A stretch of 64,000 bases of DNA from Candidatus Poribacteria bacterium (GCA_022821725.1 JAJEDB010000089.1:4074-68073); one strand, 5' to 3'; positions 12,390 to 64,000 are shown, counted from the first letter of the stretch. Numbers and translations are program-made. The notes: generated by a model from the letters alone, not told the origin.

Positions 12390-12421
12390 TAGAATACTCC
12401 CTGGTTATCAGATCCATTTAT

Positions 12422-12457
12422 AATTAAAGATACTATTTTGAAACCGAAAGGGTGCAT
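12422..12457 (-). promoter_or_regulatory. Candidate promoter (site 1 of a three-member family): ATGCACCCTT-N20-TTAATT, 33 nt upstream of the sigma-fusion-1 ATG
   Basis: The exact motif and exact 20-nt spacer are shared with sites at 15341-15376 and 22399-22434. A T-run lies upstream on the coding strand. Confidence 0.5.
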
Positions 12458-12739
12458 AACTTTGAAAAATAGCAGGAAATTGATCGCCTCTAAATTTATG
12501 ATACCAGAAATCCAGGGCGTTTTATAGTAAAATCCCAAAATATATGAACCGGTCTTCAATGAACAAAGTCCAACACCGCCGCTGGCAAAGATTGTATCCT
12601 CGCCCGATAATGTCCAAATAATTATGGACCTTACTATAAGCAAGGCTTACGCTAATTCCGCGCTTCTGTTGTTTGCTTAGATAGCATCCAGAGAAGCGTG
12701 TCCTGCGTAAGCCTCACAATATCGATGGAACAGAATATT

Positions 12740-13741: not shown

Positions 13742-13879
13742 TTTTTTTCTCCTTCAGAGGCGTTATGTTGCCTCATGTTTGAAGTTTAACCTTTGACAAT
13801 CTGCGTCTGTATCCTAATGACGCGTTTAAACGCTGTGGGCAATTTGGCTGTTATTACGCCTTGTTATAAGTGCTTCGTA

Positions 13880-15292: not shown

Positions 15293-15340
15293 TTGGATTC
15301 TCCTTTCATTTTTCCGTGGAGGGGTATATGCCCGCTTTTA

Positions 15341-15376
15341 CAATTAATGATACAGGTTTGCGCCGAAAAGGGTGCA
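15341..15376 (-). promoter_or_regulatory. Candidate promoter (site 2): ATGCACCCTT-N20-TTAATT upstream of the ABC-2 permease
   Basis: Identical motif and spacing to 12422-12457, about 50 nt upstream of ATG 15292. Confidence 0.5.
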
Positions 15377-15599
15377 TAAAACAAAAAAATCTGGATTTTT
15401 ATCGGTAGGGGTTGATGACGGAGTGGTTTTGGAGAGGCGGGGTTAGAAAACCTACCAGTGATGGGAAGGATTATTGTTTGAACGTCAGGTTGTAGGCGAT
15501 TTTATTCAGCTGATTCTTGGGATTCAGGTTCTGGATGTGTGTGTATCCATTCTTGGAAGGTTGCTAAATCTTGAAAAAAAGAGCGTTTAAGTAAGCATA

Positions 15600-18059
15600 T
15601 CAAAATTCATAGATGAGTCCGACAGAAAAGGTAAAGCCAAGCTGAGGGATCTCCAAAGACTCATTGATTTCAAAACCGAGTTCGTCCGAGTCCTCCTCCA
15701 GTTCCAACGTTTCAAGTTCCCCAAGAAGTCTATCAGCCAAACGGAATCTTATTTTATTTTTCCGATTATAGACATTCAAAATTTCGGTATATGCCGTCAC
15801 AGGGAGGCCCCACAAAGTCCTTTTCTCACTAAAACGGAGATCCAAGCGGTGATAAGACGGAAATTCTGTCGGAAAAATCGCGCCTGCGACATCAGAAATG
15901 AGTGAGTGCATCCCTGCCGTTACAGGATCCTGAACCGTAATAAGATTGTTTAACGGCACTGCAGTGGTGCCACTGGCGTATTGCCACTTCGCCCCAATTT
16001 CTCTTTTTGTCGTAGGACTATAGTTGGCAACAATACTCACCACATGGGTGTTATCAAAAAGGAACGGTTTGTAAACGTCGTCCGGTGTCTCACGTCGTTC
16101 AGCATGGGTATAAGCATAAGACATCCATCCGAAAAACTTTTCGCTCACGCGGTGCCGCAGAAACATCTCCGCACCACTCACAAATCCTGTCCCTTGATTG
16201 AGATATGCGCTTGCAACCGCTGTATCCGAGTCATCAAAAAGTGCATCAATGTTGATGGATCTCGTGACTAATTTCTGCATGTCTTTGTAATAGAGCGCGA
16301 ATTTGAGTTCCGTTTGGGCGGACAATTCATGTTCCAATTCCATGATGTAATGCTCGGTTAGACTCGGTTTTAGGTCTCGGTTTCCATCCGCCTTTAGCAC
16401 TTGGTATGCCAAGGGACTCCGTTCATATCTACCGTAGGCAAACCGGAGCGTAGAGGTCGTTGGCAGTGTGAAACTCAGACTGCCGCGAGGTTGGATTGAT
16501 AGTTCATCTGTCAGATTGAGATAGTCGAACCGCACACCCAAGGCAATAGATAAAGGGGAGAGCAGATCATAGCGAGCCTGAAGGTACCCCTCGGCGCGCC
16601 GAAATGGGTAATTAAATTCGTCAAGCTTCTGTATCCATGACGGTTCTTCATCAAAATCTATGTTCTCCACAGAAGATGTATGTGTATAGCTTTTAGATGG
16701 ACTGAAAGCGAGAAGGAAGCCGGGTTCCAATTGAAGTTTCGGTGTTAATTTGTAGGACACGTCTTCGCGAAGGGTATACGTGGGTGTGTTGATCTTTAAG
16801 TTGTAGATGGATCCTTCACGCTCAGTCTTGCTGTCTTGACTTGAGGTGCCGCCGAAGTGGATATTGAGAAAATTGTGGGAACGCGTCAGGGAAAGATGGG
16901 ACGTGAGTTTATCTGTGAAATCGGAGCGTAGATGAATGCCTTCCGCTTCAAACCCGTTTTTGAAATAGGCGAAAACATCATCTGCTTCTTGGGTTTCTTC
17001 TGATCCAACACCGGAGAAGTCAAAGTGATCTGCCGCGCCTAAGCCGTTGAGCGTGAGATGGTGCTTTGGCGTAAGTTGATAGGTAAATTTGAGTTGATAG
17101 TCCGACCATGTAGGGAGGGTCCAATCGAAGAAAAGCCCAAGAATGAGGTTATGGATAGTGAATCGTCCGGCGATAGAGGCGTAGCCTTTGTCTCCGATTT
17201 TGGTTTCGAGAAACCCAGAGGGCGATATAATGTTCAGGTCGAGTGCGCCTGCCCACCGCTTTTCCAACCGTTCGCGCGAACGGATGTCAATAACTGATTG
17301 TGAATCTAACCCGAATTCGGCACCGTATCCACCGGCATAGATATGAATGTCCTCAATACTATGTGAGTTAATCGTTGAAAAAAGTCCGGCATAGTGAAAC
17401 GGATAACCGAGGGGGGTCCTGTCGAAATAGAGGAGCGTCTCCCCGGGCGGACTCCCCCGAATATAGAGGATCCCGAAGATATCGTTGGGGATACCGATGC
17501 CTGGCAGCGTCGTGAGTCCCTTAAGCGCATCACGTCCAGTCCCAGGGATCCGTATCAGTTCGCTGCCGCGAATTTCCTTGCGGCTCACCGTCGGGGGTAG
17601 CCGTTGTCCCTCTACAAAAATGGGTTCAAGCCGTGTTGCTGCCTCCGGACTATCGGGGATTTCGACAAACGTTCCTTCTGTATTGATGGAAAATCGCCTG
17701 CGGAGCGTCTCCCCTGCGCGAATTTCAATTGGAATTTCTGTGGATGTATTGTGAGTTGGATGGAAGATGGACAGTGTATATGCTCCGACGGGAATTTCAA
17801 TGAACCGAAATGCGCCATCTTTATCTGTTTTTTGAGACTGATCGGTTTCAACGATGCGGACCTCTGTTTCAACCAAGGGAACATTAATATCGCGTTGGTA
17901 GAGGGTGCCTTCTATATCACCTGTGCGTGGAAAGATTCGCTGATAGATGCTTCTTTTCGTTTTTGGGGATGTATCTTCTTTAGCATTGTCCGTTTCAGCG
18001 GAAACAGAAAACGGTATCATGAGCATAACACACAGAACAGCATATAAGCAAAATCTCAT
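15600..18059 (-). CDS. Outer-membrane beta-barrel protein, TonB-dependent-receptor-like, with an N-terminal carboxypeptidase-regulatory-like (CarbD) domain
   Basis: Signal peptide MRFCLYAVLCVMLMIPFSVSA. The CarbD-like stretch is GTLYQRD…VRIVETDQS…FRFIEIPVGAYTLSI. The sequence is long with beta-strand alternation and ends in a C-terminal aromatic, …GLIYEF. Confidence 0.6.
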   Translation of the reverse strand: MRFCLYAVLCVMLMIPFSVSAETDNAKEDTSPKTKRSIYQRIFPRTGDIEGTLYQRDINVPLVETEVRIVETDQSQKTDKDGAFRFIEIPVGAYTLSIFHPTHNTSTEIPIEIRAGETLRRRFSINTEGTFVEIPDSPEAATRLEPIFVEGQRLPPTVSRKEIRGSELIRIPGTGRDALKGLTTLPGIGIPNDIFGILYIRGSPPGETLLYFDRTPLGYPFHYAGLFSTINSHSIEDIHIYAGGYGAEFGLDSQSVIDIRSRERLEKRWAGALDLNIISPSGFLETKIGDKGYASIAGRFTIHNLILGLFFDWTLPTWSDYQLKFTYQLTPKHHLTLNGLGAADHFDFSGVGSEETQEADDVFAYFKNGFEAEGIHLRSDFTDKLTSHLSLTRSHNFLNIHFGGTSSQDSKTEREGSIYNLKINTPTYTLREDVSYKLTPKLQLEPGFLLAFSPSKSYTHTSSVENIDFDEEPSWIQKLDEFNYPFRRAEGYLQARYDLLSPLSIALGVRFDYLNLTDELSIQPRGSLSFTLPTTSTLRFAYGRYERSPLAYQVLKADGNRDLKPSLTEHYIMELEHELSAQTELKFALYYKDMQKLVTRSINIDALFDDSDTAVASAYLNQGTGFVSGAEMFLRHRVSEKFFGWMSYAYTHAERRETPDDVYKPFLFDNTHVVSIVANYSPTTKREIGAKWQYASGTTAVPLNNLITVQDPVTAGMHSLISDVAGAIFPTEFPSYHRLDLRFSEKRTLWGLPVTAYTEILNVYNRKNKIRFRLADRLLGELETLELEEDSDELGFEINESLEIPQLGFTFSVGLIYEF

Positions 18060-18373
18060 AAAAAGGTTTGGACCTCCACTTGGAACCTGAATTGCAGACT
18101 GTAACGCTCAATTAGACGTTCCAGTTGACACAGAGATCGCGTTAATCAACAGTCCGCAAAACAGCCAAGCCTATGACGAATCTTTAATAGGATTTACGCA
18201 ATTTTCCCATAAAACGCCACATATTGTGCTATTGGCGAGGTTAGGAGGGAAATCCGCAGAAATACCCTATCAAAGACCCCCAGCAAAAACACCTCGCCAG
18301 CAAGGAAGCTGCGTAAGTCCTGTTTAATTTCAACAACGGCTCGGCTGTAATGGTGAAATGGAATATCTTTCTC

Positions 18374-19168
18374 CTATGGATTCTGTGGATTTTGTTGAAA
18401 AAAAACGCCTTCAGTCCATCTCAGAAACACATCAGTATTCGTGAAATTATTGAGGATTTCTGCGGTTAGCGCAGGGTTGTGCACGGCGAGCCATAAAAGT
18501 CCATCATCTTTTCCGTGCTGCTCAAACTGTTCCTGTATGAAAAGCGCGTCCCTCTTTTCGGTTTCAGTTACGAAATGTTCAAGGGCAGGAAAGAATTCTG
18601 TTACTTGCTCTTTGTTTGGTATATGTATTTCCATCCAAGCCTTTATAGGTGCTTCATCAAGGACTGATAGTTTTTTTTCGAGCACAGCCAATATCGCCTT
18701 GAGAACGTTTTCGTCGTTTCCATCATGTATCATCTGATACAGCATCACGTTTGCACAGCGATACTCCAAAGTTAGCTGATGAACGATCGCTATGTCTTCT
18801 TCGTTGGATTTCCCGATAGATTCCTTCAAAAAGGGTTTGTATCTTTCCGGGTCAGGCTTTGCTACGTCGAGGTAGTCTGCTAACGTTTTAAACGGTTTTG
18901 CCGTCCGATATTCTTGGGTAAGAAAATCCACATACGTTTTAGAAGCTGTCACCTTACCCATGATGGTGAAATCTCCATCAAAAATGGGTTTCGGAAACAA
19001 CACCTTTAGTTTCGCAAACGTGTCTTCCGGTGTAGGTTTGGGGGGTATAGGTTCGGCAATAAGTTTTTCGACAGACGTTGTGTCAGTGTCGGGGTCTTCA
19101 GAGCATCCCAACAATTGAAAAGCAATCACAAAAAGCATAAAGACTGTGAAACGTAAAGAATGCTGCAT
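18374..19168 (-). CDS. Lipoprotein, hypothetical
   Basis: Signal peptide with lipobox FQLLGC|SEDPD. No recognisable domain. Confidence 0.5.
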   Translation of the reverse strand: MQHSLRFTVFMLFVIAFQLLGCSEDPDTDTTSVEKLIAEPIPPKPTPEDTFAKLKVLFPKPIFDGDFTIMGKVTASKTYVDFLTQEYRTAKPFKTLADYLDVAKPDPERYKPFLKESIGKSNEEDIAIVHQLTLEYRCANVMLYQMIHDGNDENVLKAILAVLEKKLSVLDEAPIKAWMEIHIPNKEQVTEFFPALEHFVTETEKRDALFIQEQFEQHGKDDGLLWLAVHNPALTAEILNNFTNTDVFLRWTEGVFFQQNPQNP

Positions 19169-19389: not shown

Positions 19390-22335
19390 TCAATAGTTTT
19401 CTTCTTCAAGCGAGACCTGAAACATCCCGCGCTTTTCTGTTACAGCGTAGAGTGTGTCGCCGTTAATAACGAGAGAAATCACCCGACCTGGCACTTCTGG
19501 CGAGATTTTTTTCCAGGCACCGCGACGATTCAATTGATAGGCACCTTCATTGCCGGCACCGTAGACCCTGGTGCCGGATACAGCAATTCGATCCATAACG
19601 GTATGGCTCCCGGTTTTATCGGTGAGCGCTCGCCAATGCTCACCCGTTTCTGAGGTCAAGACCCCTGTGTCTGTCGCGACATACACTGTGGGTCCCGCGA
19701 AGACGATCGCTTTAAAGTGCTTGAAGCGCAGCGGCAGGTTTGCAGTTAGGTCTTTCCATGTGTTGCCACTATCAAACGATTGCAGGAGGTGTCCATCACG
19801 TTTTCCGACATAGACGGTTTCCCCTGAAACAGCAAGTGTGATACTTTTCTGGTTCTCTTTCACAGCATCGTCATCATTATCAGGGAGCTGGGTTTTATCT
19901 ATCAAGCCGGTGTTGAACCATTCTGGTTCACCGCGTTTCCAGCGGAAAAGCCGTCTCTTATATTCTGTGTAAAATGTCTCGCCGCTCACTGCGAACGCTG
20001 CAGAGAATTTGTCGAGTAGCCGGGTTGTATCTGCCAGACCCATCATGTCCATTATGGAGAGATTTCCACCGAAGGTAGTAGGTCCCTGAATAGGTATGAA
20101 CACGTCGCCATTCGCAGAGAGCCGAAAAAGGCGAACTTCATTTTGCGCGTCGAATGCTGCTGAGATACCGTAAAGCACACCCTCAGAGATCGCCAATTTT
20201 GCGGAAATCAAGATATCCGTAGGTGGGGTTAGGTCTGACGGCTCTAACGCAAGTTCTGCGGAATTCACAAGAAGCGTTTTCCAGGACTTCCCGTTATCAG
20301 CCGATTTGGCGATACCTAAGCCGGTATTTGCGTAGAGTGCGTTTTTGAATGTTACCAAGTCAAACACTTTAGTGCCGACCATCCCTTTCGTGAACGGGTG
20401 CCACGACTGCCCGCCATCCGTTGAACGGATCAGCCCGTCGCGAACTCCAACTTTGAGAAATGTGTTTTTATCCACTGTTAATGTAGGGAACATACTGAGT
20501 GTCACCGAATTCATCATCGCATTCATATCAGATGTGTCAAACCCTGAGTCTGTCCATGTTTTCCCGCCATCCGTTGAGCGGAACGTGGTGACACCTAAGG
20601 CCAATAACGTCTCTCCAGCCGCCAAGACTTTAACACCCGGTGACATTTTCATTGTGAACGAAGTGCTTTTCGGTGTTAGTTCCGTCCATGTATCCCCCAA
20701 GTCGGTTGAGTGGAAGATCTCCCATGAACTTCGGGTGTCGCTGCTCATCACTTGTCCTATGTATGCTCCCATTCCCTCAGGAGTGTTTAATTGAGAAAGA
20801 TCGGGACCTGTTCCAACATAGAGGTTGTTTTCATAAACTGCCAAGGAGTGGATGGCTTTAGTGGTATCGACCGGCAATTTTTCCCACATCCCTGCGCGCG
20901 AGCGGTAGAGTCCGTGGTTCATGCCTGCAAACACACTGTTTTCGATGGCAGTAAATGTGAGAATGTGAGTGTTTTCGCTGAGTATCCCATCGTTCATTGG
21001 CATCCACTGTTTACCGGCATCTTCGGATCGGAAAATCTGATTCTCAAGGGCGAGATATAGACCTGCGTCCGTTATTGCGAGTCCGATAGCATTTCCTTTT
21101 GGACGCGGACCCAGCGACTCCCATGTTTCGCCGCTATCGGTTGAAGCCCACACTTTATCAGTGGATACAAGGTAGAGGGTGCCGTTTCGTTCTGCCATGG
21201 GTTTCCAGTTGGAGTCTGCCGGAGCCTCTGGCGGCAATGGACTAACGTATGTCCATACAGATGCATTTGGTGTTAATCTATAGATACCCGCCGGTGAAGC
21301 GGTATAGATATCTCCTGTGGAGCTGAGGAGTAACCCCGATACATGTCCACCTTCTGGACCGTTTGCTTGTATCCACTGCTGTTTTGTTGATGGACGTGTC
21401 TCCTTCTCTATCTGCGCAGCGGCGAGCACAACAGGCTCCGAAACTTGTGGACCGGCCCCTCTACTTTTGCCAGTGGTATCAAAGCGTCCGGCTTGGTTCC
21501 GTAAATCGGGTTTTGCCTGTATATCAAGGACAATGGGGGCATCGATGATTTCAACGGTGGTTTCTGATCTGGCGTTCAGGTTATACGGTTTCTGAAAGTG
21601 GGCGAGGTATTGCGACCCGGCACCCATTATTAAAAAGATAAAGATGGCTGTTGCGGCGGAGATTGCCCAAGGTATTAAGGGTTTGCTGTTCGTAGGCGTT
21701 ACCGGCTTTAGGTTGGCAACTTGCTTTACAATGTTTTCGGTAAAAGTGACAGGTAAATCTACACTGCCAAGGGTTTCCCCCACGATGTCATCCTCCTGCT
21801 TTAAACGGTTGCGTGCGCGTTGGAGACGGCTTTTAACTGTATTTGGGGACACGCCTAAAAATTCACTAATCGCTTTATATGTCATTTCTCCAAGATAGTG
21901 AAGTGTCACAACTGTGCGTTCGCTCTCCGGCAGTTTCTCTAAGAGACTTCTGATGTGCCTTTGCCGGTGTTCGGCAGAGGCTTCCTCACGTTGTTCGTCT
22001 TCGTAGTGACGGTAGGAAGATTCTTCAATCTCCTCTCCACTGGTGGTTTCCAAGGATTCCATTGATGGTTTCTGCTTTCGATGCCAGTCAATACAGAGTC
22101 GATCGGCGATGACATAGAGCCATCCAGCGAACTGATTCGGATTCTTTAACGTCGAGAGTTTCTGGTATGCTTTAAGGAAGGTATCCTGTGTGAGTTCCTC
22201 GGCGGTATGGAAGTCGTCAACCTTCCGCCATGCAAGGGCGTGGACGCTTTTTTGGTATTTTTTTACCAGTCTGGTAAAGGCGTTTTCGTCCCCTGTCAGG
22301 AATTGATTGACCAGTTGTGCGTCTTCGTTTTTCAT
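19390..22335 (-). CDS. Second ECF sigma factor–TM helix–BNR/Asp-box propeller fusion (paralogue of 9402-12389)
   Basis: Region 2 (FTRLVKKYQKSVHALAWRKVDDFHTAEELTQDTFLKAY) and region 4 (ERTVVTLHYLGEMTYKAISEFLGVSPNTVKSRLQRARNRL). TM segment LIPWAISAATAIFIFLIMGAGS. Repeated STDGGKTW, STDLGDTW and SFDSGNTW. The C-terminal 150 aa are about 70% identical to gene 1. Confidence 0.75.
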   Translation of the reverse strand: MKNEDAQLVNQFLTGDENAFTRLVKKYQKSVHALAWRKVDDFHTAEELTQDTFLKAYQKLSTLKNPNQFAGWLYVIADRLCIDWHRKQKPSMESLETTSGEEIEESSYRHYEDEQREEASAEHRQRHIRSLLEKLPESERTVVTLHYLGEMTYKAISEFLGVSPNTVKSRLQRARNRLKQEDDIVGETLGSVDLPVTFTENIVKQVANLKPVTPTNSKPLIPWAISAATAIFIFLIMGAGSQYLAHFQKPYNLNARSETTVEIIDAPIVLDIQAKPDLRNQAGRFDTTGKSRGAGPQVSEPVVLAAAQIEKETRPSTKQQWIQANGPEGGHVSGLLLSSTGDIYTASPAGIYRLTPNASVWTYVSPLPPEAPADSNWKPMAERNGTLYLVSTDKVWASTDSGETWESLGPRPKGNAIGLAITDAGLYLALENQIFRSEDAGKQWMPMNDGILSENTHILTFTAIENSVFAGMNHGLYRSRAGMWEKLPVDTTKAIHSLAVYENNLYVGTGPDLSQLNTPEGMGAYIGQVMSSDTRSSWEIFHSTDLGDTWTELTPKSTSFTMKMSPGVKVLAAGETLLALGVTTFRSTDGGKTWTDSGFDTSDMNAMMNSVTLSMFPTLTVDKNTFLKVGVRDGLIRSTDGGQSWHPFTKGMVGTKVFDLVTFKNALYANTGLGIAKSADNGKSWKTLLVNSAELALEPSDLTPPTDILISAKLAISEGVLYGISAAFDAQNEVRLFRLSANGDVFIPIQGPTTFGGNLSIMDMMGLADTTRLLDKFSAAFAVSGETFYTEYKRRLFRWKRGEPEWFNTGLIDKTQLPDNDDDAVKENQKSITLAVSGETVYVGKRDGHLLQSFDSGNTWKDLTANLPLRFKHFKAIVFAGPTVYVATDTGVLTSETGEHWRALTDKTGSHTVMDRIAVSGTRVYGAGNEGAYQLNRRGAWKKISPEVPGRVISLVINGDTLYAVTEKRGMFQVSLEEENY

Positions 22336-22398
22336 CGAATGTCTCCAGGAACTTAAGAGTGAGCGTTTTTAACGCGCGACTATTGGACTGCTGTCACT

Positions 22399-22434
22399 AA
22401 TTAATGACGAGATTTAAAGAGCAGAAGGGTGCAT
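22399..22434 (-). promoter_or_regulatory. Candidate promoter (site 3): ATGCACCCTT-N20-TTAATT upstream of sigma-fusion 2
   Basis: Identical motif and spacing to 12422-12457 and 15341-15376, about 65 nt upstream of ATG 22335. Confidence 0.5.
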
Positions 22435-22707
22435 GACGAGAAAAAATTAGAGAAATTATATCATAACTATACTAAAATGTTTTTCTTGATATGGTGAGAT
22501 ATGGAATTTACGGGTTGTTTTTGGTGGGCATTCCTGTGTTTTTGACATTGAACTCACGTTTTAACGTAAATTTATAATTGGCGAGATCAAATTTTTCAAC
22601 AGAACGCGAATCAGCCAAACCTATAAGAAATTCTTCAATTCCCATAATGGCTTGGCTGTAATTATGAAAGGAATTTTTTCTTAGTTTACTTCCGTGTTTA
22701 AACAGGG

Positions 22708-23145
22708 TTAATCTTTTTGCAGCCAGAGGGTTAGCATCATAGCACCTGCTCCGATGAGAGTCATGCTCGGGTAATACCACCATAGGAACCGATTGCGTTT
22801 TTTCTTAATGGCATTCCTTTTCTTTTGGATCCTCACAATCGCTCTATTTCCTTTTTCACGGGAGGCAAGATCGTTGTTAACCAACATCCAACGTTGAACG
22901 AACAACTCATCTTCATTGAGTTTGTGGATTTCTGCTTGCCATTCATCCAACGGCGTTAGCCAGCGTCCAAAGGAGGTAACGCCCATTACAACGAGCGTTG
23001 GGAGTCCAATGAGAGGGTTGCTTTTTTCGCGAGTGAAGGAATCATTTGTTTCCTTGGTAGGTGTGGCGATTGATATATCCGCCAATAGGATACCAAATAT
23101 TAACGGACAGATAAGGGTTAAGCGCGACGCAAAGGGTAAGGTCAT
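22708..23145 (-). CDS. Small membrane protein, hypothetical
   Basis: ATG at 23145 is preceded by TAGGAGAGAAATC. There are two or three TM segments and a basic KKKRNRF loop. The longer ORF-track start at 23199 lacks an RBS. Confidence 0.45.
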   Translation of the reverse strand: MTLPFASRLTLICPLIFGILLADISIATPTKETNDSFTREKSNPLIGLPTLVVMGVTSFGRWLTPLDEWQAEIHKLNEDELFVQRWMLVNNDLASREKGNRAIVRIQKKRNAIKKKRNRFLWWYYPSMTLIGAGAMMLTLWLQKD

Positions 23146-56855: not shown

Positions 56856-58079
56856 GTGGAAGCGATTCAATATACCAAAAGCATCCCGCGTTATCTGGCG
56901 ATGCGCTATCTTGGGAAACGGTGGCGAAGTCTTTATACGTCTCCGTTCTCTTGCACGCGTCTCGTTGATATCCCGGAGCCACAACTGCCAACGCCTGAAT
57001 GGGTTAAGGTTAGAACTCGACTCAGCGGTATTTGTGGCTCCGATCTGGCGACAATCACGGCGAAAGGGAGTCCCTACTTCTCGCCATTCACGTCAACACC
57101 TTTCGTATTAGGGCATGAAATCGTCGGTGAAGTCGCGGAGATAGGTGATGCAGTGGAAGGATTCTCTGTCGGTACACGGGTAGTCATTGAACCGGCACTG
57201 TCGTGTCCAGTGAGAGGGATTTCACCGCCGTGTCACCAATGCCGAAACCAACGCTTCGCCAACTGCGAAAATATCACAAAAGGCGACATCTCTGGAGGGG
57301 TTCAAACGGGTTATTGCCGCGATACAGGGGGTGGATGGAGCCAATATGTTCTGGCGCATCAGTCGCAACTCCATTCCGTCCCTGATGCTATTTCGGACGA
57401 AACCGCAGTGCTGCTTGAACCTTTTGCATGCGCGCTACACGGCGTTCTGAAAATTCCGTCCGACCGGACAGCAACTCTCTGTATCATTGGGGGTGGCACG
57501 ATTGGACTGCTCACCGTGGCGGCACTTCGGATCCTTGGACACCGAAACCGAATCATCATCTTCGCTAAATATCCGCATCAACAGCGATTGGCGAGCGAAC
57601 TCGGCGCGGACGACGTGTTATCACCGAATAGCAGTCGATATGCCGCGTTCTGTGAACTCACAGGCGCGACATCGTATCAACCGGAGTTGGGACAACAGGT
57701 CTTGCTGGGGGGTGTGGACGTTACCTTCGATTGTATCGGCTCGAGCGTTACCATAGACGACGCGCTCCGTTTTACCCGTGCGGGGGGTGAAGTCATCTTG
57801 GTCGGTATGCCGGGAATCCCCAAAAACGTTGACTGGACTTCGATTTGGTATAAACAGTTACGCGTAACGGGTGCCTATACCTACGGACTTGAAACGCATA
57901 ACGACGAACAGATTCATACCTTCACACTCGGTATGCGTCTTCTTCAAAAGATGGAGGCACATTTGCGTCCACTGGTAAGCACGCTTTTTCCACTGCTGGA
58001 TTACAAACGTGCTATCCAGACTGCTCTGAATACAGGCAAGACAGCCACAGTGAAAACCGCTTTTGACTTACGGGACTAA
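56856..58079 (+). CDS. Zinc-dependent alcohol dehydrogenase family (MDR), polyol/threonine dehydrogenase-like
   Basis: GICGSDL; GHEIVGEV; structural-zinc Cys cluster CPVRGISPPCHQCRNQRFANC; Rossmann GGGTIG. Confidence 0.75.
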   Translation: MEAIQYTKSIPRYLAMRYLGKRWRSLYTSPFSCTRLVDIPEPQLPTPEWVKVRTRLSGICGSDLATITAKGSPYFSPFTSTPFVLGHEIVGEVAEIGDAVEGFSVGTRVVIEPALSCPVRGISPPCHQCRNQRFANCENITKGDISGGVQTGYCRDTGGGWSQYVLAHQSQLHSVPDAISDETAVLLEPFACALHGVLKIPSDRTATLCIIGGGTIGLLTVAALRILGHRNRIIIFAKYPHQQRLASELGADDVLSPNSSRYAAFCELTGATSYQPELGQQVLLGGVDVTFDCIGSSVTIDDALRFTRAGGEVILVGMPGIPKNVDWTSIWYKQLRVTGAYTYGLETHNDEQIHTFTLGMRLLQKMEAHLRPLVSTLFPLLDYKRAIQTALNTGKTATVKTAFDLRD

Positions 58080-58109
58080 TTTCACTACGAAACGTGAACA
58101 TCTCACAAC

Positions 58110-58186
58110 AGACATAGCACTCCGCTGGAGTGCGTATTTGTTTGTATGCCCTTTCTATAGACATATCACTCCGCTGGAGTGTCGGA
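58110..58186. promoter_or_regulatory. Two direct copies of a 22-nt unit containing the hairpin/palindrome CACTCC-GCT-GGAGTG, upstream of membrane protein 58293-60269
   Basis: ACATAGCACTCCGCTGGAGTGCG and ACATATCACTCCGCTGGAGTGTCGG lie about 50 bp apart, which looks like an operator pair. Confidence 0.4.
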
Positions 58187-58292
58187 ACCTATCCGCTATA
58201 AATCCGAATAGGCGTGATACATCCCGTCGGATTTCTCTAATTTTTACGTTAAACTCACATTACTATAAACAACTGACCGATACATACTTTCT

Positions 58293-60269
58293 ATGACACC
58301 TCCTGCCGCGTATCATTCCCAGAACCTGCCGCAAACCGCCTATCCTGCTCACACTGGACTCACACTGCGAAGCGTCCTCATCGGTATGGGAGCCGTGGTA
58401 TGCCAATGCTTCGCTACCCCCTATAATGATTTCCACGTCGGTGGCACGTATCTCGCAGGAAATCACTTGCCGATCGCCGTCGTCTTCGTAATGCTGGTTT
58501 TCGTCCTCAGCGTCAATGTGCTCCTGAAAAGATTGAAACGCGGTATTGAACTACAAGGCAGTGAACTCCTCATCATTTGGGGGATGATGATAGTCGCCTC
58601 GGGTATCCCTTCCTCGGGGTTGATGCGATACCTCGTTCCCCTCGCTGTCAGTCCAGTCTACTTCGCAACCGCGGAAAACGAGTGGATCACCCTCTTTCAT
58701 CAGCACCTCCCAGATTGGATGGTTGTGAAAGATCCGAAAGCGGTTTTCTATTTTTATGAACAATTACCCGAGGGCGATTCGATCCCGTGGCGGGCATGGT
58801 TAAAGCCTATTGTCGGGTGGAGTGCGTTTGTCCTCATTTTTTATTTCGTTACCATCTGCTGGACAGTGCTTCTCCGCAAGCAGTGGGTAGAACACGAACG
58901 TTTCACATTTCCGATTGTTCAATTGCCGCAGGAGATGTTGCAATCCCCTTCAGGGGGTGCACTTCTGAATCGGTTCTTCACATCGCGGCTGATGTGGTTC
59001 GGTTTCACGCTGCCACTCATATTGCACGGGTTGCGGGGACTGCACTCTTACTTCCCAGCCTTCCCGAGGCCGCCCCTCGATTTCCCGATTGCTCAATTCT
59101 TCACCGAAAAACCGCTATCCGCGTTGGGATGGTGGCCCACGGTGCACCTGTTTATCTACCCTTCCATCGTTGCCATCGTCTATCTGCTGACCCTTGAAAT
59201 CTCGTTTAGTTTCTGGTTCTTCTTCCTGCTCGGAAAGATGGAGACGGTGCTTATCTACGCAACAGGTTCGAAAGTGAATCAGTGGAACTTCCACCAGAAT
59301 CAACAGATGGGTGCGCTGCTCGTCTTTATCGGATTTATCCTCTTTATCGGGAAACGGCACTTCGGACGGGCATTCGCTACTATTTTCGGGAAACGGGTAA
59401 GCGATGATACCAACGAACCGCTACCTTATGTTTGGGCGGTCGGTGGTTTAATCGTAGGGGTTCTACTGCTTACACTGATATGTCGCCTGGCGGGGATGAG
59501 TGTGTGGGTGGCACTCGTTATGCTCGGGATTTTCCTCGCTATAACGACAGTCGGAACGTGGATGGTTGCAAATGGTGGCTTACTGTTTATCATCTATTCT
59601 TTCCTACCGGGTGAATTCCTGATTACGTTGTTCGGCAGTTCCCGTGTGAACGCCCCGAGTTGGACCTTGATCGCTTATGAACGGGTCTTGATGTTCGATA
59701 TGCGGGAGATTCTGATGCCGGGTGTGATGAACAACTTCAAACTCGCGGAACCGCTACGTCTCAAGCAGCGTCCGTTCCTGCTTGCGATGGGGATCGCAAT
59801 CGTTTTAGCGATGGGTGTCTCCTACTATACGTCCTTAGACCTCGCTTATACGCACGGCGCGGTGAACCTGCAACACTGGACCTATATGATCTCCACAACC
59901 GTCCCCTTCACCCGACTCACGAGCATCCTCCAAAACCCGACAGGTATTGAATTGGAACGGCTCGGTTCGTTCATCTTCGGGGGTGCCACGATGTTCGGGA
60001 TGCTCTGGATGCGACATCACTATCTGTGGTGGAAACTTCACCCAATCGGTGCGCTCTTGATAACCAGTTACGCGTCCTTCTGTTTTTGGGGTTCCTTCTT
60101 CATCGGGTGGCTGTTCAAATACACCGTCCTGAAGTTTGGCGGCGTTACCCTCTATCGTAAACTCCGTCCCTTTGTATTAGGGATCGTATTAGGCGAGTGT
60201 TTCATCGGCGGCATATGGATTGTCGTTGGGCTTTTTACGGGCATTGGGTATCGCTTGTTGCCGGGCTAA
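58293..60269 (+). CDS. Polytopic membrane protein of unknown function, paralogue of 50629-52515
   Basis: See the shared blocks above. 658 aa, about 14 TM segments. Confidence 0.6.
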   Translation: MTPPAAYHSQNLPQTAYPAHTGLTLRSVLIGMGAVVCQCFATPYNDFHVGGTYLAGNHLPIAVVFVMLVFVLSVNVLLKRLKRGIELQGSELLIIWGMMIVASGIPSSGLMRYLVPLAVSPVYFATAENEWITLFHQHLPDWMVVKDPKAVFYFYEQLPEGDSIPWRAWLKPIVGWSAFVLIFYFVTICWTVLLRKQWVEHERFTFPIVQLPQEMLQSPSGGALLNRFFTSRLMWFGFTLPLILHGLRGLHSYFPAFPRPPLDFPIAQFFTEKPLSALGWWPTVHLFIYPSIVAIVYLLTLEISFSFWFFFLLGKMETVLIYATGSKVNQWNFHQNQQMGALLVFIGFILFIGKRHFGRAFATIFGKRVSDDTNEPLPYVWAVGGLIVGVLLLTLICRLAGMSVWVALVMLGIFLAITTVGTWMVANGGLLFIIYSFLPGEFLITLFGSSRVNAPSWTLIAYERVLMFDMREILMPGVMNNFKLAEPLRLKQRPFLLAMGIAIVLAMGVSYYTSLDLAYTHGAVNLQHWTYMISTTVPFTRLTSILQNPTGIELERLGSFIFGGATMFGMLWMRHHYLWWKLHPIGALLITSYASFCFWGSFFIGWLFKYTVLKFGGVTLYRKLRPFVLGIVLGECFIGGIWIVVGLFTGIGYRLLPG

Positions 60270-60438
60270 ATGGTAAATTTCCATACAAAGATTTGCCCTC
60301 TTACTAAAAACTATGTTAAAATAAATATAAGTTTCAACCGTTATCCAAAGAATTTTTAATGCCCTTTGGGATTATAAATAGAAAGACTTTTACTCAACTC
60401 CTTCGCTAATTGTCGGACCTTAGATTTGGAGGGAAAAG

Positions 60439-61935
60439 ATGGCAAAAAAGAAAAAGCGCCAGAAAAAATCACAACAGAAAAATTACTCTAAGATTTCGGC
60501 GCACAAACGCCAAGGCAAAAAATTAATTCCACCTTTAGTTGATAACTTCGATTTTACCAATTCTTCGTGGATAGATGACCGCTTGCCTGAAATGCTCTGG
60601 GCGATTCTTCTTGTGACACACCTACCCCGAGAAGACGCACTAAATGTATTCCGAAAGGTTGCTAAATACATTGAAGACCTACCAAGCGAAGACAAATTTT
60701 ATGATGTCACACACACAGGGCTTTCAAAACTATCGTCTGAACGTCTAGATGATGTGCTGGCAATTATTACCGATCAGCAGGAGCAAAAGGAAGTCTTAGC
60801 TTCCCTTTTGTTACTTGATGAACTTCCGGGACAAGAAGCTTGGGCAAAAGCATTGAATGTTGATAGGATCGACGATGATTGGAACCTCCTGATGGAGTCG
60901 GTAGGACATACTCTTTGGCATCAAACTCAGGAATCAACTGATTGTCGATGGCTGAAAGTGCTTTGCCGGATGATGGCTGGAAAATTGCAAATTGCTTTTG
61001 AAAATCCTGAAGATAGCAGACAACGAGTTAACGAAATCCTATACTATCCCGACTGTGGCGATCCAAGTCACGTCAGAGCTTCAATTCGAGCCACTGAAAT
61101 TACACCGGCCCCTTTGTCATCAAATCAGACTGGATGGGCAGCAAAGTTTTGGAGTGAGTGTTTAGCCAAAACTCCCTGCTTTCCTATCAATACGAACTTC
61201 CCCAGCAGGGAAATTTTGACAGGCACAACACGGGAACGTTTGAGTAAAGTATACAATCTTTTGATTGAACATACGCATCACACACGAACAACCAGTGGTG
61301 TTGACGCGCGGCACGATGCTGTTTTCGGGTTAGGGCTGTACAGTCTCAGCCTACTTCAAGAATTACTGCAAGTTGGAAGTTGCAACTCAATTAGTAGCAG
61401 AACAACCCTGAGGACAATCGCAGAGAGTTTTATCACTTTAGCCTACCTCGCTAAAAAGGACGACGCTGAACTTTGGCAAAAATATCGTGTGTATGGCACA
61501 GGTCAGGTAAAAAAGGTGTTTTTAAAGCTGGACGATTCACAAACCGAAATCCCTCATTTTGTTGATCTCACCACCTTAGAACAGTTAGCAAATGAGGATA
61601 TGTGGCAGGAATTCCAGACTATTGACCTCGGACACTGGGCTGACACGAACTTACGAAAAATGAGTGAAGAAGTAGGCGTGAAAGATGTTTATGATCGCTT
61701 TAACGATTGGACAGCTACATTTTCTCACGGGCATTGGCCCGCTATTCGTGATGCAGTTTTTGATACCTGCGGGAATCCGTTACACCGGTTACACCGTATC
61801 CCGCGTCAATCACCACGCGCATTACCAGATGTAGTTCCGGATGCGTGCCAATTAGTTGACCAAATCTTGGAAATTGTATCGCAGCTCTATCCTCATTTCC
61901 AAGATAGGGTTACTCTTGAAGAGAGGCACCTATAG
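60439..61935 (+). CDS. Hypothetical protein (498 aa) with a Lys-rich N-terminus, in an AT-rich island
   Basis: AGGGAAAAG ahead of the ATG. MAKKKKRQKKSQQK N-terminus. No TM segment and no Walker motif. Local GC content is clearly lower than in the rest of the window. Confidence 0.5.
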   Translation: MAKKKKRQKKSQQKNYSKISAHKRQGKKLIPPLVDNFDFTNSSWIDDRLPEMLWAILLVTHLPREDALNVFRKVAKYIEDLPSEDKFYDVTHTGLSKLSSERLDDVLAIITDQQEQKEVLASLLLLDELPGQEAWAKALNVDRIDDDWNLLMESVGHTLWHQTQESTDCRWLKVLCRMMAGKLQIAFENPEDSRQRVNEILYYPDCGDPSHVRASIRATEITPAPLSSNQTGWAAKFWSECLAKTPCFPINTNFPSREILTGTTRERLSKVYNLLIEHTHHTRTTSGVDARHDAVFGLGLYSLSLLQELLQVGSCNSISSRTTLRTIAESFITLAYLAKKDDAELWQKYRVYGTGQVKKVFLKLDDSQTEIPHFVDLTTLEQLANEDMWQEFQTIDLGHWADTNLRKMSEEVGVKDVYDRFNDWTATFSHGHWPAIRDAVFDTCGNPLHRLHRIPRQSPRALPDVVPDACQLVDQILEIVSQLYPHFQDRVTLEERHL

Positions 61936-61990
61936 TCAGTGAATTTTGTAATTATTTAGATGTAGCAAATATCAGAACAAAGGTTTTATT

Positions 61991-62530
61991 ATGATAAAAA
62001 ATACGATACTGCTAGTATCAGATGAAGCGATGCCGAAAGATCTCTATAACAAGGTACCCAGTCGTTTGCTATCTCTATTTACATCCCCAGTTATTAAGGG
62101 GAACGATATTGTCTATCCTACTTTTGTTGGAGAGGATGCCCAAATTGAGAACATCGGTGAATTTAGCCGTCCAATTCCAAGTTGTACTGCATTCGCGTTC
62201 CGAGCGGACTGGCAAGAAACCAATACTGAACTTGAAATAGCATACGTTAAGATGAATGATAAAACTGAAACGGCGGTGTCGTTAATTGGTATGTATTCCG
62301 AATGTTCACAGAAATATCCTTACCCTATCAAAAGTATATTTGATGGGAAATTTTGGGAAAAATTACCTATGATGACACATGAAACATTCCGTTTTTATCT
62401 TGAGAATTTGGGAATGTATGTTACAATGCTGGCAATACCCCATTTAGCGGATAAATATAATACGAAAATCGGATTGTCTTGCCATGGATTTAAAGAATGG
62501 TGTTCAATAATGGATTCGCATCTTCCCTAG
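61991..62530 (+). CDS. Hypothetical protein (179 aa)
   Basis: Coherent ORF in the same AT-rich island. No motif recognised. Confidence 0.4.
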   Translation: MIKNTILLVSDEAMPKDLYNKVPSRLLSLFTSPVIKGNDIVYPTFVGEDAQIENIGEFSRPIPSCTAFAFRADWQETNTELEIAYVKMNDKTETAVSLIGMYSECSQKYPYPIKSIFDGKFWEKLPMMTHETFRFYLENLGMYVTMLAIPHLADKYNTKIGLSCHGFKEWCSIMDSHLP

Positions 62531-62569
62531 CACCATCTACCCTTTTGCCTTAAGTTGACAGGATTCCCA

Positions 62570-64000
62570 ATGAACAAACTTTACTTCGGTGACAACTTAG
62601 AAATTCTACGTGAAATGCCAGATGAATGCGTTCATCTGATATGCACCGATCCGCCCTTCAACAGCGGACGCGACTACAATACATTCCTAGGTGACTCCCT
62701 TGCACAGAAAAAAGCGTTTACCGATACATGGACGTGGGACACCGCTGCACAAGATGCCCGTGCCGACATCGAACAACGGGCATTTTCCAGCGATACCTAC
62801 AAGGCATTGGATACCTGTCTGAAGGGTTATGATTTAGTCCTACAAAACGCGGTCTCCGGCAACAAAGGCGCGATGCGCGCATACCTTGCTTTTATGGGGC
62901 CCCGCCTCGCTGAGATGCACCGTATACTTACACCAAATGGCAGTATATACTTGCACTGCGACCCGACTGCTTCACACTATCTCAAAGGCATGATGGATGC
63001 TATCTGGGATCAGGAAAACCATAGTAAGAATGAATCTTTTCGGAATGAAATCGTGTGGTCATATCGTCGTTGGCCTGCAAAACATCCGAATTTTCAGCGA
63101 ATGCACGACGTTATCTTGCGTTATGCTAAAGGCACAAATGTAACTTGGAATCAACTATACGAACCAAGACCGGCATCAACCCTCAAAAGATTTGGGAGTA
63201 AGAAAATCAAGAGTGCCTTCGCGCAAGATGGGAAACGCATACCTTCTGAGATGATGAGTGAAGAATCCGAAGGAGTACCCCTCAGGGATGTGTGGGAAAT
63301 AAGTGTAATTGCCCCATCTGCCAAGGAACGCCTCGGTTACCCCACACAGAAACCGCTCGCCCTTTATGAACGCATGATAAAAGCCTCCAGCAATGAAGGC
63401 GATATTGTATTGGATCCGTTCTGTGGTTGCGGGACAACTATTGATGCCGCACATACCCTTAATCGACAGTGGATGGGTATAGACATTACAATCCTCGCTT
63501 TGGATCCGATGCGACAACGGTTGACAGACCGACATGGATTAGAGCCTTCCGTTGACTACCAAATCGAAGGCTATCCCACCAACATGCAGGAAGTCCGCAG
63601 ACTTCTAAAAGATGGCGATAGACGGAAATATCACGACTTTTCCAATTGGGCAGTGACGAGGCTGGGACTCAGACCAACGAAAGACGTTGGGGATGGCGGT
63701 CTTGATGGTGTTGGTCAAGTTACTTTATGGAATCCGCAGGTCATGAAAGAAACGGAGGCACGTATTCTCGCTGAAGTCAAAACTGGCAAACCGACGATCA
63801 CCCAAGTTCGTGCCTTCTGCCGTGTGATGGATAAAAACAACGCCGAAGTTGGTATTTTTATTACTCTTGAACCCGTAACCGCGAGCATGCGGCAAGAGGC
63901 ACAGGATATGGGCCGTTTTGAGCACAACCACCAAACCTATCCCCGCCTCCAATTCTGGCAGATAGATGATGAATACTTCAACAACCCAGATATTATCAAC
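62570..64000 (+). CDS. DNA methyltransferase (beta-class N6A/N4C, DPPF…FxGxG order) fused to a C-terminal Mrr-like PD-(D/E)xK nuclease domain; 3'-partial
   Basis: I translated the frame by hand: it is open from ATG 62570 to the window end (477 codons) and is absent from the ORF track because it has no stop. Motif IV is CTDPPFNS. Motif I is VLDPFCGCGTT, preceded by the PTQKP region. The C-terminal part has VGDGGLDGVGQV…AEVKTGKP, resembling Mrr catalytic GDGGIDG…ExK. Confidence 0.65.
   Translation, partial: MNKLYFGDNLEILREMPDECVHLICTDPPFNSGRDYNTFLGDSLAQKKAFTDTWTWDTAAQDARADIEQRAFSSDTYKALDTCLKGYDLVLQNAVSGNKGAMRAYLAFMGPRLAEMHRILTPNGSIYLHCDPTASHYLKGMMDAIWDQENHSKNESFRNEIVWSYRRWPAKHPNFQRMHDVILRYAKGTNVTWNQLYEPRPASTLKRFGSKKIKSAFAQDGKRIPSEMMSEESEGVPLRDVWEISVIAPSAKERLGYPTQKPLALYERMIKASSNEGDIVLDPFCGCGTTIDAAHTLNRQWMGIDITILALDPMRQRLTDRHGLEPSVDYQIEGYPTNMQEVRRLLKDGDRRKYHDFSNWAVTRLGLRPTKDVGDGGLDGVGQVTLWNPQVMKETEARILAEVKTGKPTITQVRAFCRVMDKNNAEVGIFITLEPVTASMRQEAQDMGRFEHNHQTYPRLQFWQIDDEYFNNPDIIN

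What the first reader, a model, noticed from the sequence alone, without database searches (positions are those of the whole stretch)
60270..64000. AT-rich island with two unknown proteins followed by a methyltransferase–Mrr-like nuclease fusion: candidate novel restriction or defence module
Composition shifts abruptly to AT-rich immediately after the stop of the 658-aa membrane protein and stays so to the window end, suggesting horizontal acquisition. The island encodes a 498-aa protein with a poly-Lys N-terminus and no recognisable domain, then a 179-aa unknown. Next comes a beta-class amino-methyltransferase (DPPF then FxGxG order) whose C-terminus carries GDGGLDG…EVK, resembling the Mrr catalytic PD-(D/E)xK core. 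A methyltransferase fused to an Mrr-type nuclease domain, with two co-oriented unknown genes, could be an unusual single-chain restriction-modification system. It could also be a methylation-coupled defence system whose specificity or effector functions sit in the two unknowns.
Basis: partly seen in the sequence, partly recalled or inferred. Interest (0 to 1): 0.7.

Follow-up and report, generated by a model that had tools for sequence, protein, structure and literature searches.

The report
Defence hotspot: orphan DitA plus methylase–nuclease
The end of this Poribacteria contig is a variable anti-phage "hotspot" holding two separable parts, a relative of the Aditi defence protein DitA with an unknown small partner and a DNA methyltransferase fused to an Mrr-type nuclease domain; both belong to gene families already in the databases, so this is not one new three-gene system.

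Summary
The three ORFs are real. They are 498 aa, 179 aa, and a methyltransferase that runs off the window and is 508 aa when complete. The low-GC signal is real, but it covers only the spacer and the first two genes; the methyltransferase has background GC.

The 498-aa protein is not domain-less. It is a full-length homologue of DitA of the Aditi anti-phage system (PADLOC 1e-70; Pfam DUF5677). Aditi's second gene, DitB, is absent. The 179-aa protein is an unrelated family of 82 detected members.

The third gene is a beta-class, probably N6-adenine, methyltransferase with a C-terminal Mrr/MspJI-like PD-(D/E)xK domain whose D…ExK core is conserved. It belongs to a very large, uncharacterised family annotated as "site-specific DNA-methyltransferase". 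In sister genomes it sits at the same site, once as four tandem copies. These copies have near-identical constant parts and a central target-recognition segment only 14–31% identical.

Close relatives carry DitA+179-aa without the methylase, or the methylase without them. The locus is therefore a mosaic defence hotspot made of two modules.

The methylase–nuclease most likely acts as a self-contained single-chain restriction–modification enzyme; this is inferred, not shown. I rate it a new variant of known kinds, of moderate interest.

The parts
60270..60438 (.). AT-rich spacer (31% GC) between the DUF6785 membrane gene and the DitA-like gene. It is the left edge of the variable hotspot. A sigma-70-like match lies at about 60293-60322 and a GGAGGG ribosome-binding site before the ATG.
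   Evidence: Homology to sister genomes L086/L087/L088 stops at 60265-60272.
60439..61935 (+). DitA-like protein, 498 aa. It is a homologue of DitA of the Aditi anti-phage system, with a DUF5677 domain at residues 309-438 and a basic N-terminus.
   Evidence: PADLOC DitA 1.1e-70, residues 15-488 on model positions 2-476 of 486. Pfam DUF5677 4e-14. BLASTP to the verified S. kuerlensis DitA: 25% identity, E 4e-27. 973 homologues.
61991..62530 (+). 179-aa protein of unknown fold, called 'P2' here. It is a narrow family (82 proteins, all at least 54% identical) and is not DitB.
   Evidence: No Pfam, PADLOC, NCBIfam or PHROGs match. hhalign against DitB gives probability 0.1%. The AlphaFold model has pLDDT of only 53.
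60423..62516 (+). The DitA-like + P2 cassette as delimited by DNA homology to L002, L082 and L089.
   Evidence: blastn blocks.
62570..64000 (+). Beta-class DNA methyltransferase fused to an Mrr-like nuclease domain. It is 508 aa when complete, with its stop codon at about window-equivalent 64094-64096.
   Evidence: Module edges are 62567-64102 by homology to L086-L089.
62648..62659 (+). Methyltransferase motif IV, DPPF. The D-P-P-aromatic form is typical of N6-adenine enzymes.
   Evidence: D, P and P are invariant in 123 of 123 diverse family members. The link from DPPF to m6A rests on textbook knowledge and was not tested.
63050..63319 (+). Central hypervariable segment (residues 161-250). 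This is the position of the target-recognition domain in beta-class methyltransferases.
   Evidence: Identity between the different TRD types (the copies of L087 against each other and against the window gene) is 14-31% here, against 86-99% in the flanking parts.
63419..63433 (+). Methyltransferase motif I, FCGCG (the AdoMet-binding FxGxG).
63545..64000 (+). Mrr/MspJI-like PD-(D/E)xK nuclease-fold domain. It contains GDGGLDG (63689-63709; D375, D379) and EVK (63773-63781; E402, K404).
   Evidence: Pfam Mrr_cat 5.5e-6 and NA-iREase1 7.7e-7. AlphaFold pLDDT 90.6. Foldseek top hits are MspJI 4f0p (E 5e-5) and AspBHI 4oc8 (E 7e-5). Conservation in 123 representatives: D375 114, D379 118, K404 111.

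Best explanation
The stretch is the left part of a hypervariable defence-gene hotspot. In this Candidatus Poribacteria lineage the hotspot lies downstream of the DUF6785/DUF6784 membrane-protein gene; in the sister genomes where the right flank is visible it is a LarA (Lar_N) gene. The stretch holds two independent cassettes.

(A) A recently acquired, low-GC cassette encodes an orphan DitA-like protein (Aditi family, DUF5677) and a lineage-restricted 179-aa protein. It most likely acts as an Aditi-like anti-phage unit. The canonical partner DitB is missing, and the 179-aa protein may or may not stand in for it. The molecular mechanism of Aditi is itself unknown.

(B) A resident, background-GC gene encodes a single polypeptide with three parts. 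The first is a beta-class, probably N6-adenine, DNA methyltransferase. The second is an exchangeable central target-recognition segment. The third is a C-terminal Mrr/MspJI-type PD-(D/E)xK nuclease domain.

For (B) I propose the following mechanism. The methyltransferase part reads a short DNA motif set by the central segment and methylates the host's copies of it. On unmethylated foreign DNA, bound molecules bring their nuclease domains together and cut. That would make the gene a self-contained single-chain restriction-modification enzyme.

Shown here: the domain architecture, the conserved catalytic motifs, the nuclease fold, the modular exchange of the central segment, and the modular presence or absence of each cassette.

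Inferred: methylation specificity, nuclease activity, and anti-phage function.
For: Identity of the parts: DitA-like; methylase plus Mrr-like fold and motifs.

Hotspot and modularity, with DUF6785 as the left flank:
- Window: DitA-like, P2, methylase.
- L097: two TIR genes, DitA-like, P2, methylase, 196-aa ORF.
- L082 and L002: DitA-like, P2, then a convergent DUF5677 protein, GmrSD/HNH and an EcoRI-type methylase. No methylase-Mrr gene.
- L088: FRG-TPR protein, then methylase-Mrr.
- L086: one copy of the methylase-Mrr gene. L087: four tandem copies.
- blastn homology blocks break at or within a few bases of the gene boundaries: 60265-72, 60423, 62516, 62567-70 and 64098-64103.

Composition: the spacer, DitA-like gene and P2 are 31-44% GC. 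The methylase is 47.9%, against 48.8% background.

Rarity: the 90%-identity clusters of the DitA-like protein and P2 have 3 and 2 members. The flanking housekeeping genes have 163-165.

Diversification typical of restriction specificity: between copies carrying different TRD types, the central segment is 14-31% identical, against 86-99% in the rest. The Mrr domain is 96-99% identical within one genome. The same TRD type is shared across genomes.

Plasmid-borne homologues in Mesorhizobium, Microbacterium and Megaera have no separate annotated nuclease gene beside them.

Defence context of DitA-like genes elsewhere: Avs2, Type IIG, PglXI, HmaB-like and HsdM neighbours.
Against: - No experiment shows methylation, cleavage or phage protection for any gene here.
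- Pfam scores the C-terminal domain slightly better against NA-iREase1, a family described as an inactive nuclease (29.5 bits), than against Mrr_cat (26.9 bits).
- The middle residue of the catalytic triad varies across the wider family: Q in 57, S in 49 and E in 12 of 123 representatives.
- The trio DitA-like/P2/methylase recurs on three contigs with short gaps, and in L089 P2 overlaps the methylase start by 4 bp. Functional coupling is therefore not excluded.
- All trio contigs are close relatives (87-93% identity), so their recurrence may simply reflect shared descent.
- P2 also occurs without a DitA-like gene: in five of the nine contexts fetched by a P2 homologue (window contig included), it lies next to FRG-domain genes or alone. 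Its link to the DitA-like gene is therefore loose.
Confidence: 0.6

Rival explanations
1. The three genes form one integrated, methylation-coupled defence system. The DitA-like protein and/or P2 would act as sensor, regulator or effector, working with the methylase-nuclease.
For: - The genes are co-oriented, with gaps of 55 and 39 bp. In L089, P2 overlaps the methylase start by 4 bp.
- The trio is seen in the window, L089 and L097.
- In other phyla, DitA-like genes overlap or abut methyltransferase-containing defence genes. Examples are PglXI in L007, an HmaB-like gene in L051, Type IIG in L029, a DrmMI-like gene in L027 and HsdM in L017.
- DNA methylase families are the commonest Pfam hit among 78 immediate neighbours.
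Against: - Each part exists without the others at the same locus in close relatives.
- In L089 the DitA-like gene is frameshifted while P2 and the methylase are intact.
- GC content differs between the two parts.
- Only about 8-10 of the 78 DitA-like neighbours are methylase or specificity genes. Many of the others that Pfam identifies are housekeeping genes.
- None of the 80 genome loci with a DitA-like gene carries the methylase-Mrr family. Only two weak N6_N4 methylase hits were found.
Confidence: 0.15
2. The 508-aa protein is only a solitary (orphan) methyltransferase. Its Mrr-like domain would be catalytically dead and serve for DNA binding or oligomerisation. The gene would then protect DNA from other restriction systems, or have an epigenetic role, rather than restrict.
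For: - The best Pfam match of the C-terminal domain is to a family named 'inactive restriction endonuclease' (NA-iREase1, 7.7e-7).
- Position 402 is Q or S in most relatives.
- Plasmid homologues sit among toxin-antitoxin and partition genes, as orphan plasmid methylases often do.
- All public annotations call it just 'site-specific DNA-methyltransferase'.
Against: - D375, D379, G380 and K404 are kept in 90-99% of 123 representatives at about 40-57% identity.
- Q-x-K is the active form of the motif in MspJI, as stated in the review PMC12707154. That S-x-K occurs in some active PD-(D/E)xK enzymes is from memory.
- The closest solved folds are active nucleases, MspJI and AspBHI.
- Tandem arrays with swapped recognition segments inside a defence hotspot are what restriction specificity genes do. 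From general knowledge, regulatory orphan methylases do not behave this way.
Confidence: 0.25

Closest known systems
Aditi anti-phage system (DitA+DitB; Millman et al. 2022, bioRxiv 10.1101/2022.05.11.491447)
   Same: The 498-aa protein is a full-length homologue of DitA. It is similar in size (498 against 483 aa) and sits in a defence-island context.
   Different: There is no DitB. The verified DitB is 372 aa; here the downstream gene is an unrelated 179-aa protein. The protein is only 25% identical to the verified DitA. None of 80 genome loci fetched as relatives of this DitA-like protein has a DitB.
Type III restriction-modification Mod subunits (e.g. EcoP15I Mod) and beta-class Type II methylases (M.RsrI)
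   Same: The motif order is beta-class. The N- and C-terminal methylase parts are conserved around an exchangeable central recognition segment. PADLOC matches are MTase_II at 1.6e-60 and MTase_III at 4e-29. PDB matches are M.RsrI at 1e-16 and EcoP15I Mod at 1e-7.
   Different: There is no Res helicase-nuclease partner. Instead a nuclease-fold domain is fused directly to the C-terminus of the methylase.
Single-chain Type IIC/IIG restriction-modification enzymes (e.g. BpuSI)
   Same: Nuclease-fold and methyltransferase domains lie in one polypeptide. The gene stands alone. The logic proposed here is the same.
   Different: For RM.BpuSI the nuclease is N-terminal and the recognition and methylation domains are C-terminal (abstract of PMC3185434). 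That these enzymes use a gamma-class methylase, and that MmeI and Eco57I share this plan, is from memory. Here the methylase is beta-class, the recognition segment is internal and the nuclease is C-terminal and Mrr/MspJI-like.
Mrr / MspJI-family Type IV modification-dependent nucleases
   Same: The C-terminal catalytic domain has the same fold and the same D...(Q/E)xK motif. The best structural matches are MspJI and AspBHI. There is a weak PADLOC match to mREase_IV.
   Different: Those enzymes carry an N-terminal reader of modified bases (an SRA-like domain in MspJI, per PMC12707154; a winged helix in Mrr, from memory) and cut modified DNA. Here the N-terminal part is a complete methyltransferase.

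Membership tests
Aditi defence system | DitA homologue | tested here: met
   PADLOC DitA model at 1.1e-70 over the full length. BLASTP to the verified DitA gives E 4e-27.
Aditi defence system | Adjacent DitB homologue (about 360-372 aa) | tested here: not met
   P2 has no PADLOC hit even at E<=10. BLASTP gives E>0.6. hhalign gives probability 0.1%. tblastn of two DitB sequences finds nothing in the whole window.
Aditi defence system | Protection against phage | not testable with these tools
   This needs cloning and plaque assays.
Beta-class N6/N4 DNA methyltransferase (Pfam PF01555) | Motif IV (D/S)PP(Y/F) N-terminal to motif I FxGxG, and a Pfam match above the cut-off | tested here: met
   DPPF at residues 27-30 and FCGCG at 284-288. 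PF01555 scores 160.8 bits against a cut-off of 26.7. The protein aligns to M.RsrI.
Mrr-like PD-(D/E)xK nuclease domain (Pfam PF04471) | Pfam match above the gathering score | tested here: met
   26.9 bits against a cut-off of 21. NA-iREase1 also matches, at 29.5 bits against 27.
Mrr-like PD-(D/E)xK nuclease domain (Pfam PF04471) | Catalytic D...(D/E/Q)xK residues present and conserved | tested here: met
   D375, E402 and K404 are invariant in 32 close homologues. Among 123 diverse representatives, D375 is kept in 114, D379 in 118 and K404 in 111. Position 402 is Q, S or E.
Mrr-like PD-(D/E)xK nuclease domain (Pfam PF04471) | Restriction-endonuclease fold | tested here: met
   The AlphaFold model has pLDDT 90.6. 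Foldseek top hits are MspJI and AspBHI, E 5e-5 to 7e-5, probability 1.0.
Mrr-like PD-(D/E)xK nuclease domain (Pfam PF04471) | DNA cleavage activity | not testable with these tools
   This needs a biochemical assay.
Type III restriction-modification | Res subunit (SF2 helicase plus nuclease) encoded next to Mod | tested here: not met
   The neighbours are P2 upstream and a 196-aa ORF with no Pfam family downstream. No helicase gene lies beside the methylase in L086-L089 or L097.
Type IIG single-chain restriction-modification (BpuSI-like) | N-terminal nuclease, then gamma-class methylase, then C-terminal recognition domain | tested here: not met
   The order here is beta-class methylase with an internal variable segment, then a C-terminal nuclease-fold domain. 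The best 25 PADLOC hits are MTase_II or MTase_III, not REase_MTase_IIG.
Type IV modification-dependent nuclease (Mrr/MspJI) | N-terminal modified-base reader domain (SRA or winged helix) | tested here: not met
   The N-terminal 320 residues are a methyltransferase.

The most novel reading that the evidence does not exclude
The beta-class methylase-Mrr fusions could be an unrecognised class of single-polypeptide restriction-modification enzymes. They would combine a Type III-Mod-like methylase with an MspJI-like C-terminal nuclease and no motor subunit. They would diversify specificity by exchanging a central recognition cassette between tandem paralogues. Orphan DitA-like proteins, with variable small partners such as P2, could be accessory modules that plug into such methylase-based systems.
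Probability: 0.25. Interest if true: 0.65.

Novelty: new variant of a known kind. Interest (0 to 1): 0.45.

Why it matters
Three points follow if the reading holds.
- Aditi-type DitA proteins would be far more widespread than the two-gene Aditi definition captures. Here 973 homologues were detected, and none of the 80 genome loci fetched with this DitA-like protein contained a DitB. From memory, tools that require both genes would miss them.
- A very common gene annotated only as "DNA methyltransferase" may in fact be a complete restriction-modification enzyme of an undescribed layout. That would change how methylomes and defence inventories are read, especially for sponge symbionts.
- The Poribacteria site gives a natural series of cassette combinations. 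This series could guide experiments on how defence hotspots are assembled.

Tried and rejected
- **P2 as a diverged DitB: rejected.** PADLOC, BLASTP, jackhmmer and hhalign were all negative.
- **Fold of P2: unresolved.** The AlphaFold model on 45 sequences reached only pLDDT 53, so I did not run a fold search. Profile searches of PDB, Pfam, NCBIfam and PHROGs found nothing.
- **DitA-like profile against PDB:** nothing.
- **A conserved partner for DitA-like genes:** all-against-all BLAST of neighbours across 80 genome loci found none.
- **Flanking repeats or attachment sites around the cassettes:** only short chance-level repeats.
- **Non-coding RNAs in 58000-64000:** none.
- **Promoter and terminator scan:** promoter-like matches were at chance level and terminator-like matches only modestly above it (10 against 4.7 ± 2.1); neither clarified the operon structure.
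- **Literature on the methylase-Mrr fusion, DUF5677 and the Aditi mechanism:** nothing mechanistic.
- **Type III, Type IIG and Type IV membership:** each rejected on a defining feature (see the membership table).
Full report
**Observation.**
- A 658-aa DUF6785/DUF6784 membrane protein ends at 60269.
- It is followed by ORFs of 498 aa (60439-61935) and 179 aa (61991-62530), and by an ORF from 62570 that is still open at 64000.
- A public contig (L001) is identical to window 59984-64000 over 4,017 bases and runs 1,260 bases further. It shows the third protein is 508 aa, ending 32 codons past the window. About 500 bp of spacer and a 196-aa ORF follow.

**Composition.**
- The 3.7-kb stretch is 43.7% GC, lower than every other window of that size in the 64 kb (mean 49.1%, sd 1.7%).
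- The dip is confined to the spacer (31%), the 498-aa gene (44%) and the 179-aa gene (38%).
- The methyltransferase is 47.9%, against 48.8% for the whole window.
- Exact-sequence look-ups place the window on a 94,134-bp NCBI contig. Its housekeeping proteins share 90%-identity clusters with Candidatus Poribacteria proteins.

**The 498-aa protein.**
- It is not domain-less. It matches Pfam DUF5677 (4e-14) and the PADLOC model for DitA at 1.1e-70 along its whole length.
- DitA is one of the two proteins of Aditi, an anti-phage system verified from Saccharibacillus kuerlensis. Its authors found no known domain in either protein.
- Their supplementary table gives DitA as 483 aa and DitB as 372 aa, with DitB listed after DitA.
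- The window protein aligns to that DitA at 25% identity over about 400 residues, E 4e-27.
- It has 973 detectable homologues.

**The 179-aa protein (P2).**
- It has no match in Pfam, PADLOC (even at E<=10), NCBIfam, PHROGs or PDB.
- It shows no similarity to DitB by BLASTP, jackhmmer or profile comparison. No DitB-like sequence exists anywhere in the window.
- Its family is narrow: 82 proteins, all at least 54% identical.
- The AlphaFold model was too poor to use (pLDDT 53).
- P2 is not a fixed partner of the DitA-like gene. The P2 copies sampled at 81-84% identity follow one (window, L002, L082, L089, L097, plus matching contig lengths).
- Homologues at 54-74% identity lack it:
  - In L093 and L096, P2 is followed at 27 bp by an FRG-domain protein.
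  - In L094 and L095 it stands alone.
  - In L084 it sits in a mobile element.
  - In L083 it lies beside an XPB-type helicase.

**DitA-like genes elsewhere.**
- I fetched 80 genome loci from many phyla, 36-79% identical to the window protein. None has a DitB and only one (L002) has P2. No neighbour family is conserved.
- Six of the eight largest adjacent co-oriented neighbours hit PADLOC defence models. They are Avs2, a Type IIG enzyme, PglXI, an HmaB-like methylase, a DrmMI-like protein and HsdM. Several overlap or abut the DitA-like gene.
- Among 78 immediate neighbours, DNA-methylase and specificity families are the commonest Pfam hits. They account for only about 8-10 cases, and many of the others that Pfam identifies are housekeeping genes.
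- The orphan DitA-like protein therefore looks like a self-standing defence-island gene.

**The third protein: methyltransferase part.**
- It is a beta-class methyltransferase (PF01555, 6.5e-47), with DPPF before FCGCG. M.RsrI is the best solved relative, and there is a weaker match to EcoP15I Mod.
- The D-P-P-aromatic form of motif IV points to N6-adenine. This rests on textbook knowledge and was not tested.

**The third protein: nuclease-fold part.**
- Residues about 326-508 match Mrr_cat and NA-iREase1, both above their cut-offs.
- A model of this domain is confident (pLDDT 90.6). Its best structural matches are the catalytic domains of the Mrr-like enzymes MspJI and AspBHI (E 5e-5 to 7e-5, probability 1.0).
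- D375, E402 and K404 are invariant in 32 close homologues.
- In 123 representatives at about 40-57% identity, D375 is kept in 114, D379 in 118, G380 in 122 and K404 in 111. Position 402 is Q, S or E. Q-x-K is the active form of the motif in MspJI (review PMC12707154).

**How common the fusion is.**
- 2,662 relatives at E<1e-30 were found among the 50%-identity cluster representatives. Most of the best 150 are 450-600 aa and span both domains.
- Plasmid copies in Mesorhizobium, Microbacterium and Megaera are annotated simply as DNA methyltransferases. No separate annotated nuclease gene lies beside them.
- I found no paper describing the fusion.

**Genomic context in sister genomes.** In the sister genomes fetched, the variable stretch begins right after the DUF6785 gene. 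In L082 and L086-L088 it ends at a Lar_N gene.
- L097: two TIR genes, DitA-like, P2, methylase-Mrr, 196-aa ORF.
- L089: three TIR genes, a frameshifted DitA-like gene, P2, methylase-Mrr.
- L082 and L002: DitA-like, P2 (split by an IS in L082), a convergent DUF5677-only protein, GmrSD/HNH and an EcoRI-type methylase. There is no methylase-Mrr gene.
- L088: a T5orf172 protein and an FRG-TPR protein, then methylase-Mrr.
- L086: one methylase-Mrr copy.
- L087: four tandem methylase-Mrr copies, each with a small ORF upstream (immediately so for three of the four).
- DNA homology to the window breaks at or within a few bases of the gene boundaries: 60265-72, 60423, 62516, 62567-70 and 64098-64103.

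**Mosaic structure of the methylase copies.**
- Among the copies, residues 1-160 are 86-96% identical and residues 251-325 are 87-99% identical.
- The Mrr domain is 96-99% identical within one genome.
- Residues 161-250, where beta-class enzymes carry their target-recognition domain, are only 14-31% identical between different types.
- The window's type recurs in L086, L087 (fourth copy), L088 and L089 at 81-96%.

**Interpretation.** The region is a defence hotspot carrying two separable modules.
- *Module A* (60423-62516) is a low-GC, rare cassette: an orphan DitA-like protein plus P2. It fails the two-gene definition of Aditi, but its main protein is a clear DitA homologue. Its mechanism is as unknown as Aditi's.
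- *Module B* (62567 to about 64102) is a resident gene. Its architecture, conserved catalytic residues, solitary occurrence, tandem amplification and recognition-segment swapping are best explained by a self-contained restriction-modification enzyme.
- In this model the methylase part supplies sequence recognition and self-protection, and the Mrr-like domain supplies cleavage.
- The model works like Type IIC/IIG enzymes. Module B is not a member of that group, nor of Type III or Type IV, each of which fails on a defining feature (see the membership table).

**Rivals.**
- An integrated three-gene system: confidence 0.15.
- A plain orphan methylase with a dead nuclease-like domain: confidence 0.25.

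**Verdict.** The finding is a new variant of known kinds, not a categorically new system. Its main value lies in two leads:
- orphan DitA-like genes that occur without a DitB;
- an abundant, uncharacterised methylase-nuclease architecture.

Noticed in passing
L087 1131-9527 (sister genome, 5.5-Mb contig): Four tandem methylase-Mrr paralogues (505-520 aa). Each has a 68-88-aa ORF upstream, immediately so for three of the four. These small ORFs are 71-91% identical to each other and differ in the number of GRAE/GKAE repeats. They are unrelated to P2 and have no Pfam family.
   Followed up: partly
L093 6001-7821; L096 6001-7887; L088 6329-8008: P2 homologues are followed at 27 bp by FRG-domain proteins. 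In L088 an FRG-TPR protein overlaps the start of the methylase-Mrr gene. FRG proteins may be another interchangeable cassette of the same hotspot system.
   Followed up: partly
L082 8622-9566 (-); L002 2689-3663 (-): A second, shorter DUF5677-only protein (314-324 aa) lies convergent to P2. GmrSD_N+HNH and an EcoRI-type methylase follow it.
   Followed up: partly
L089 4608-6105: The DitA-like gene is split into 375-aa and 139-aa ORFs (a frameshift) while P2 and the methylase-Mrr gene are intact. This could be decay of one module, or a sequencing error at 3x coverage.
   Followed up: no
Proteins P0179, P0187, P0193, P0197: Some DitA-like homologues carry an N-terminal SEC-C metal-binding motif (PF02810), where the window protein has its lysine-rich N-terminus.
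   Followed up: no
L007 7490-10201; L051 7468-10482; L027 2-3520; L029 2776-5910; L061/62/69/73: In other phyla, DitA-like genes overlap or abut PglXI, HmaB-like, DrmMI-like and Type IIG methylase genes. In five Pseudomonas genomes they lie next to a homologous 1,516-1,667-aa protein. The L061 copy was tested and is Avs2.
   Followed up: partly
L001 4621-5211 (about 620 bp beyond the window end); also L097 8963-9553: A conserved 196-aa ORF with a lipoprotein-like signal (LTVGC) follows the methylase. It has no Pfam family.
   Followed up: no
window 12001-16000, 18001-19000, 22001-23000: Other 1-kb stretches of 42-46% GC occur elsewhere in the window. They were not examined.
   Followed up: no
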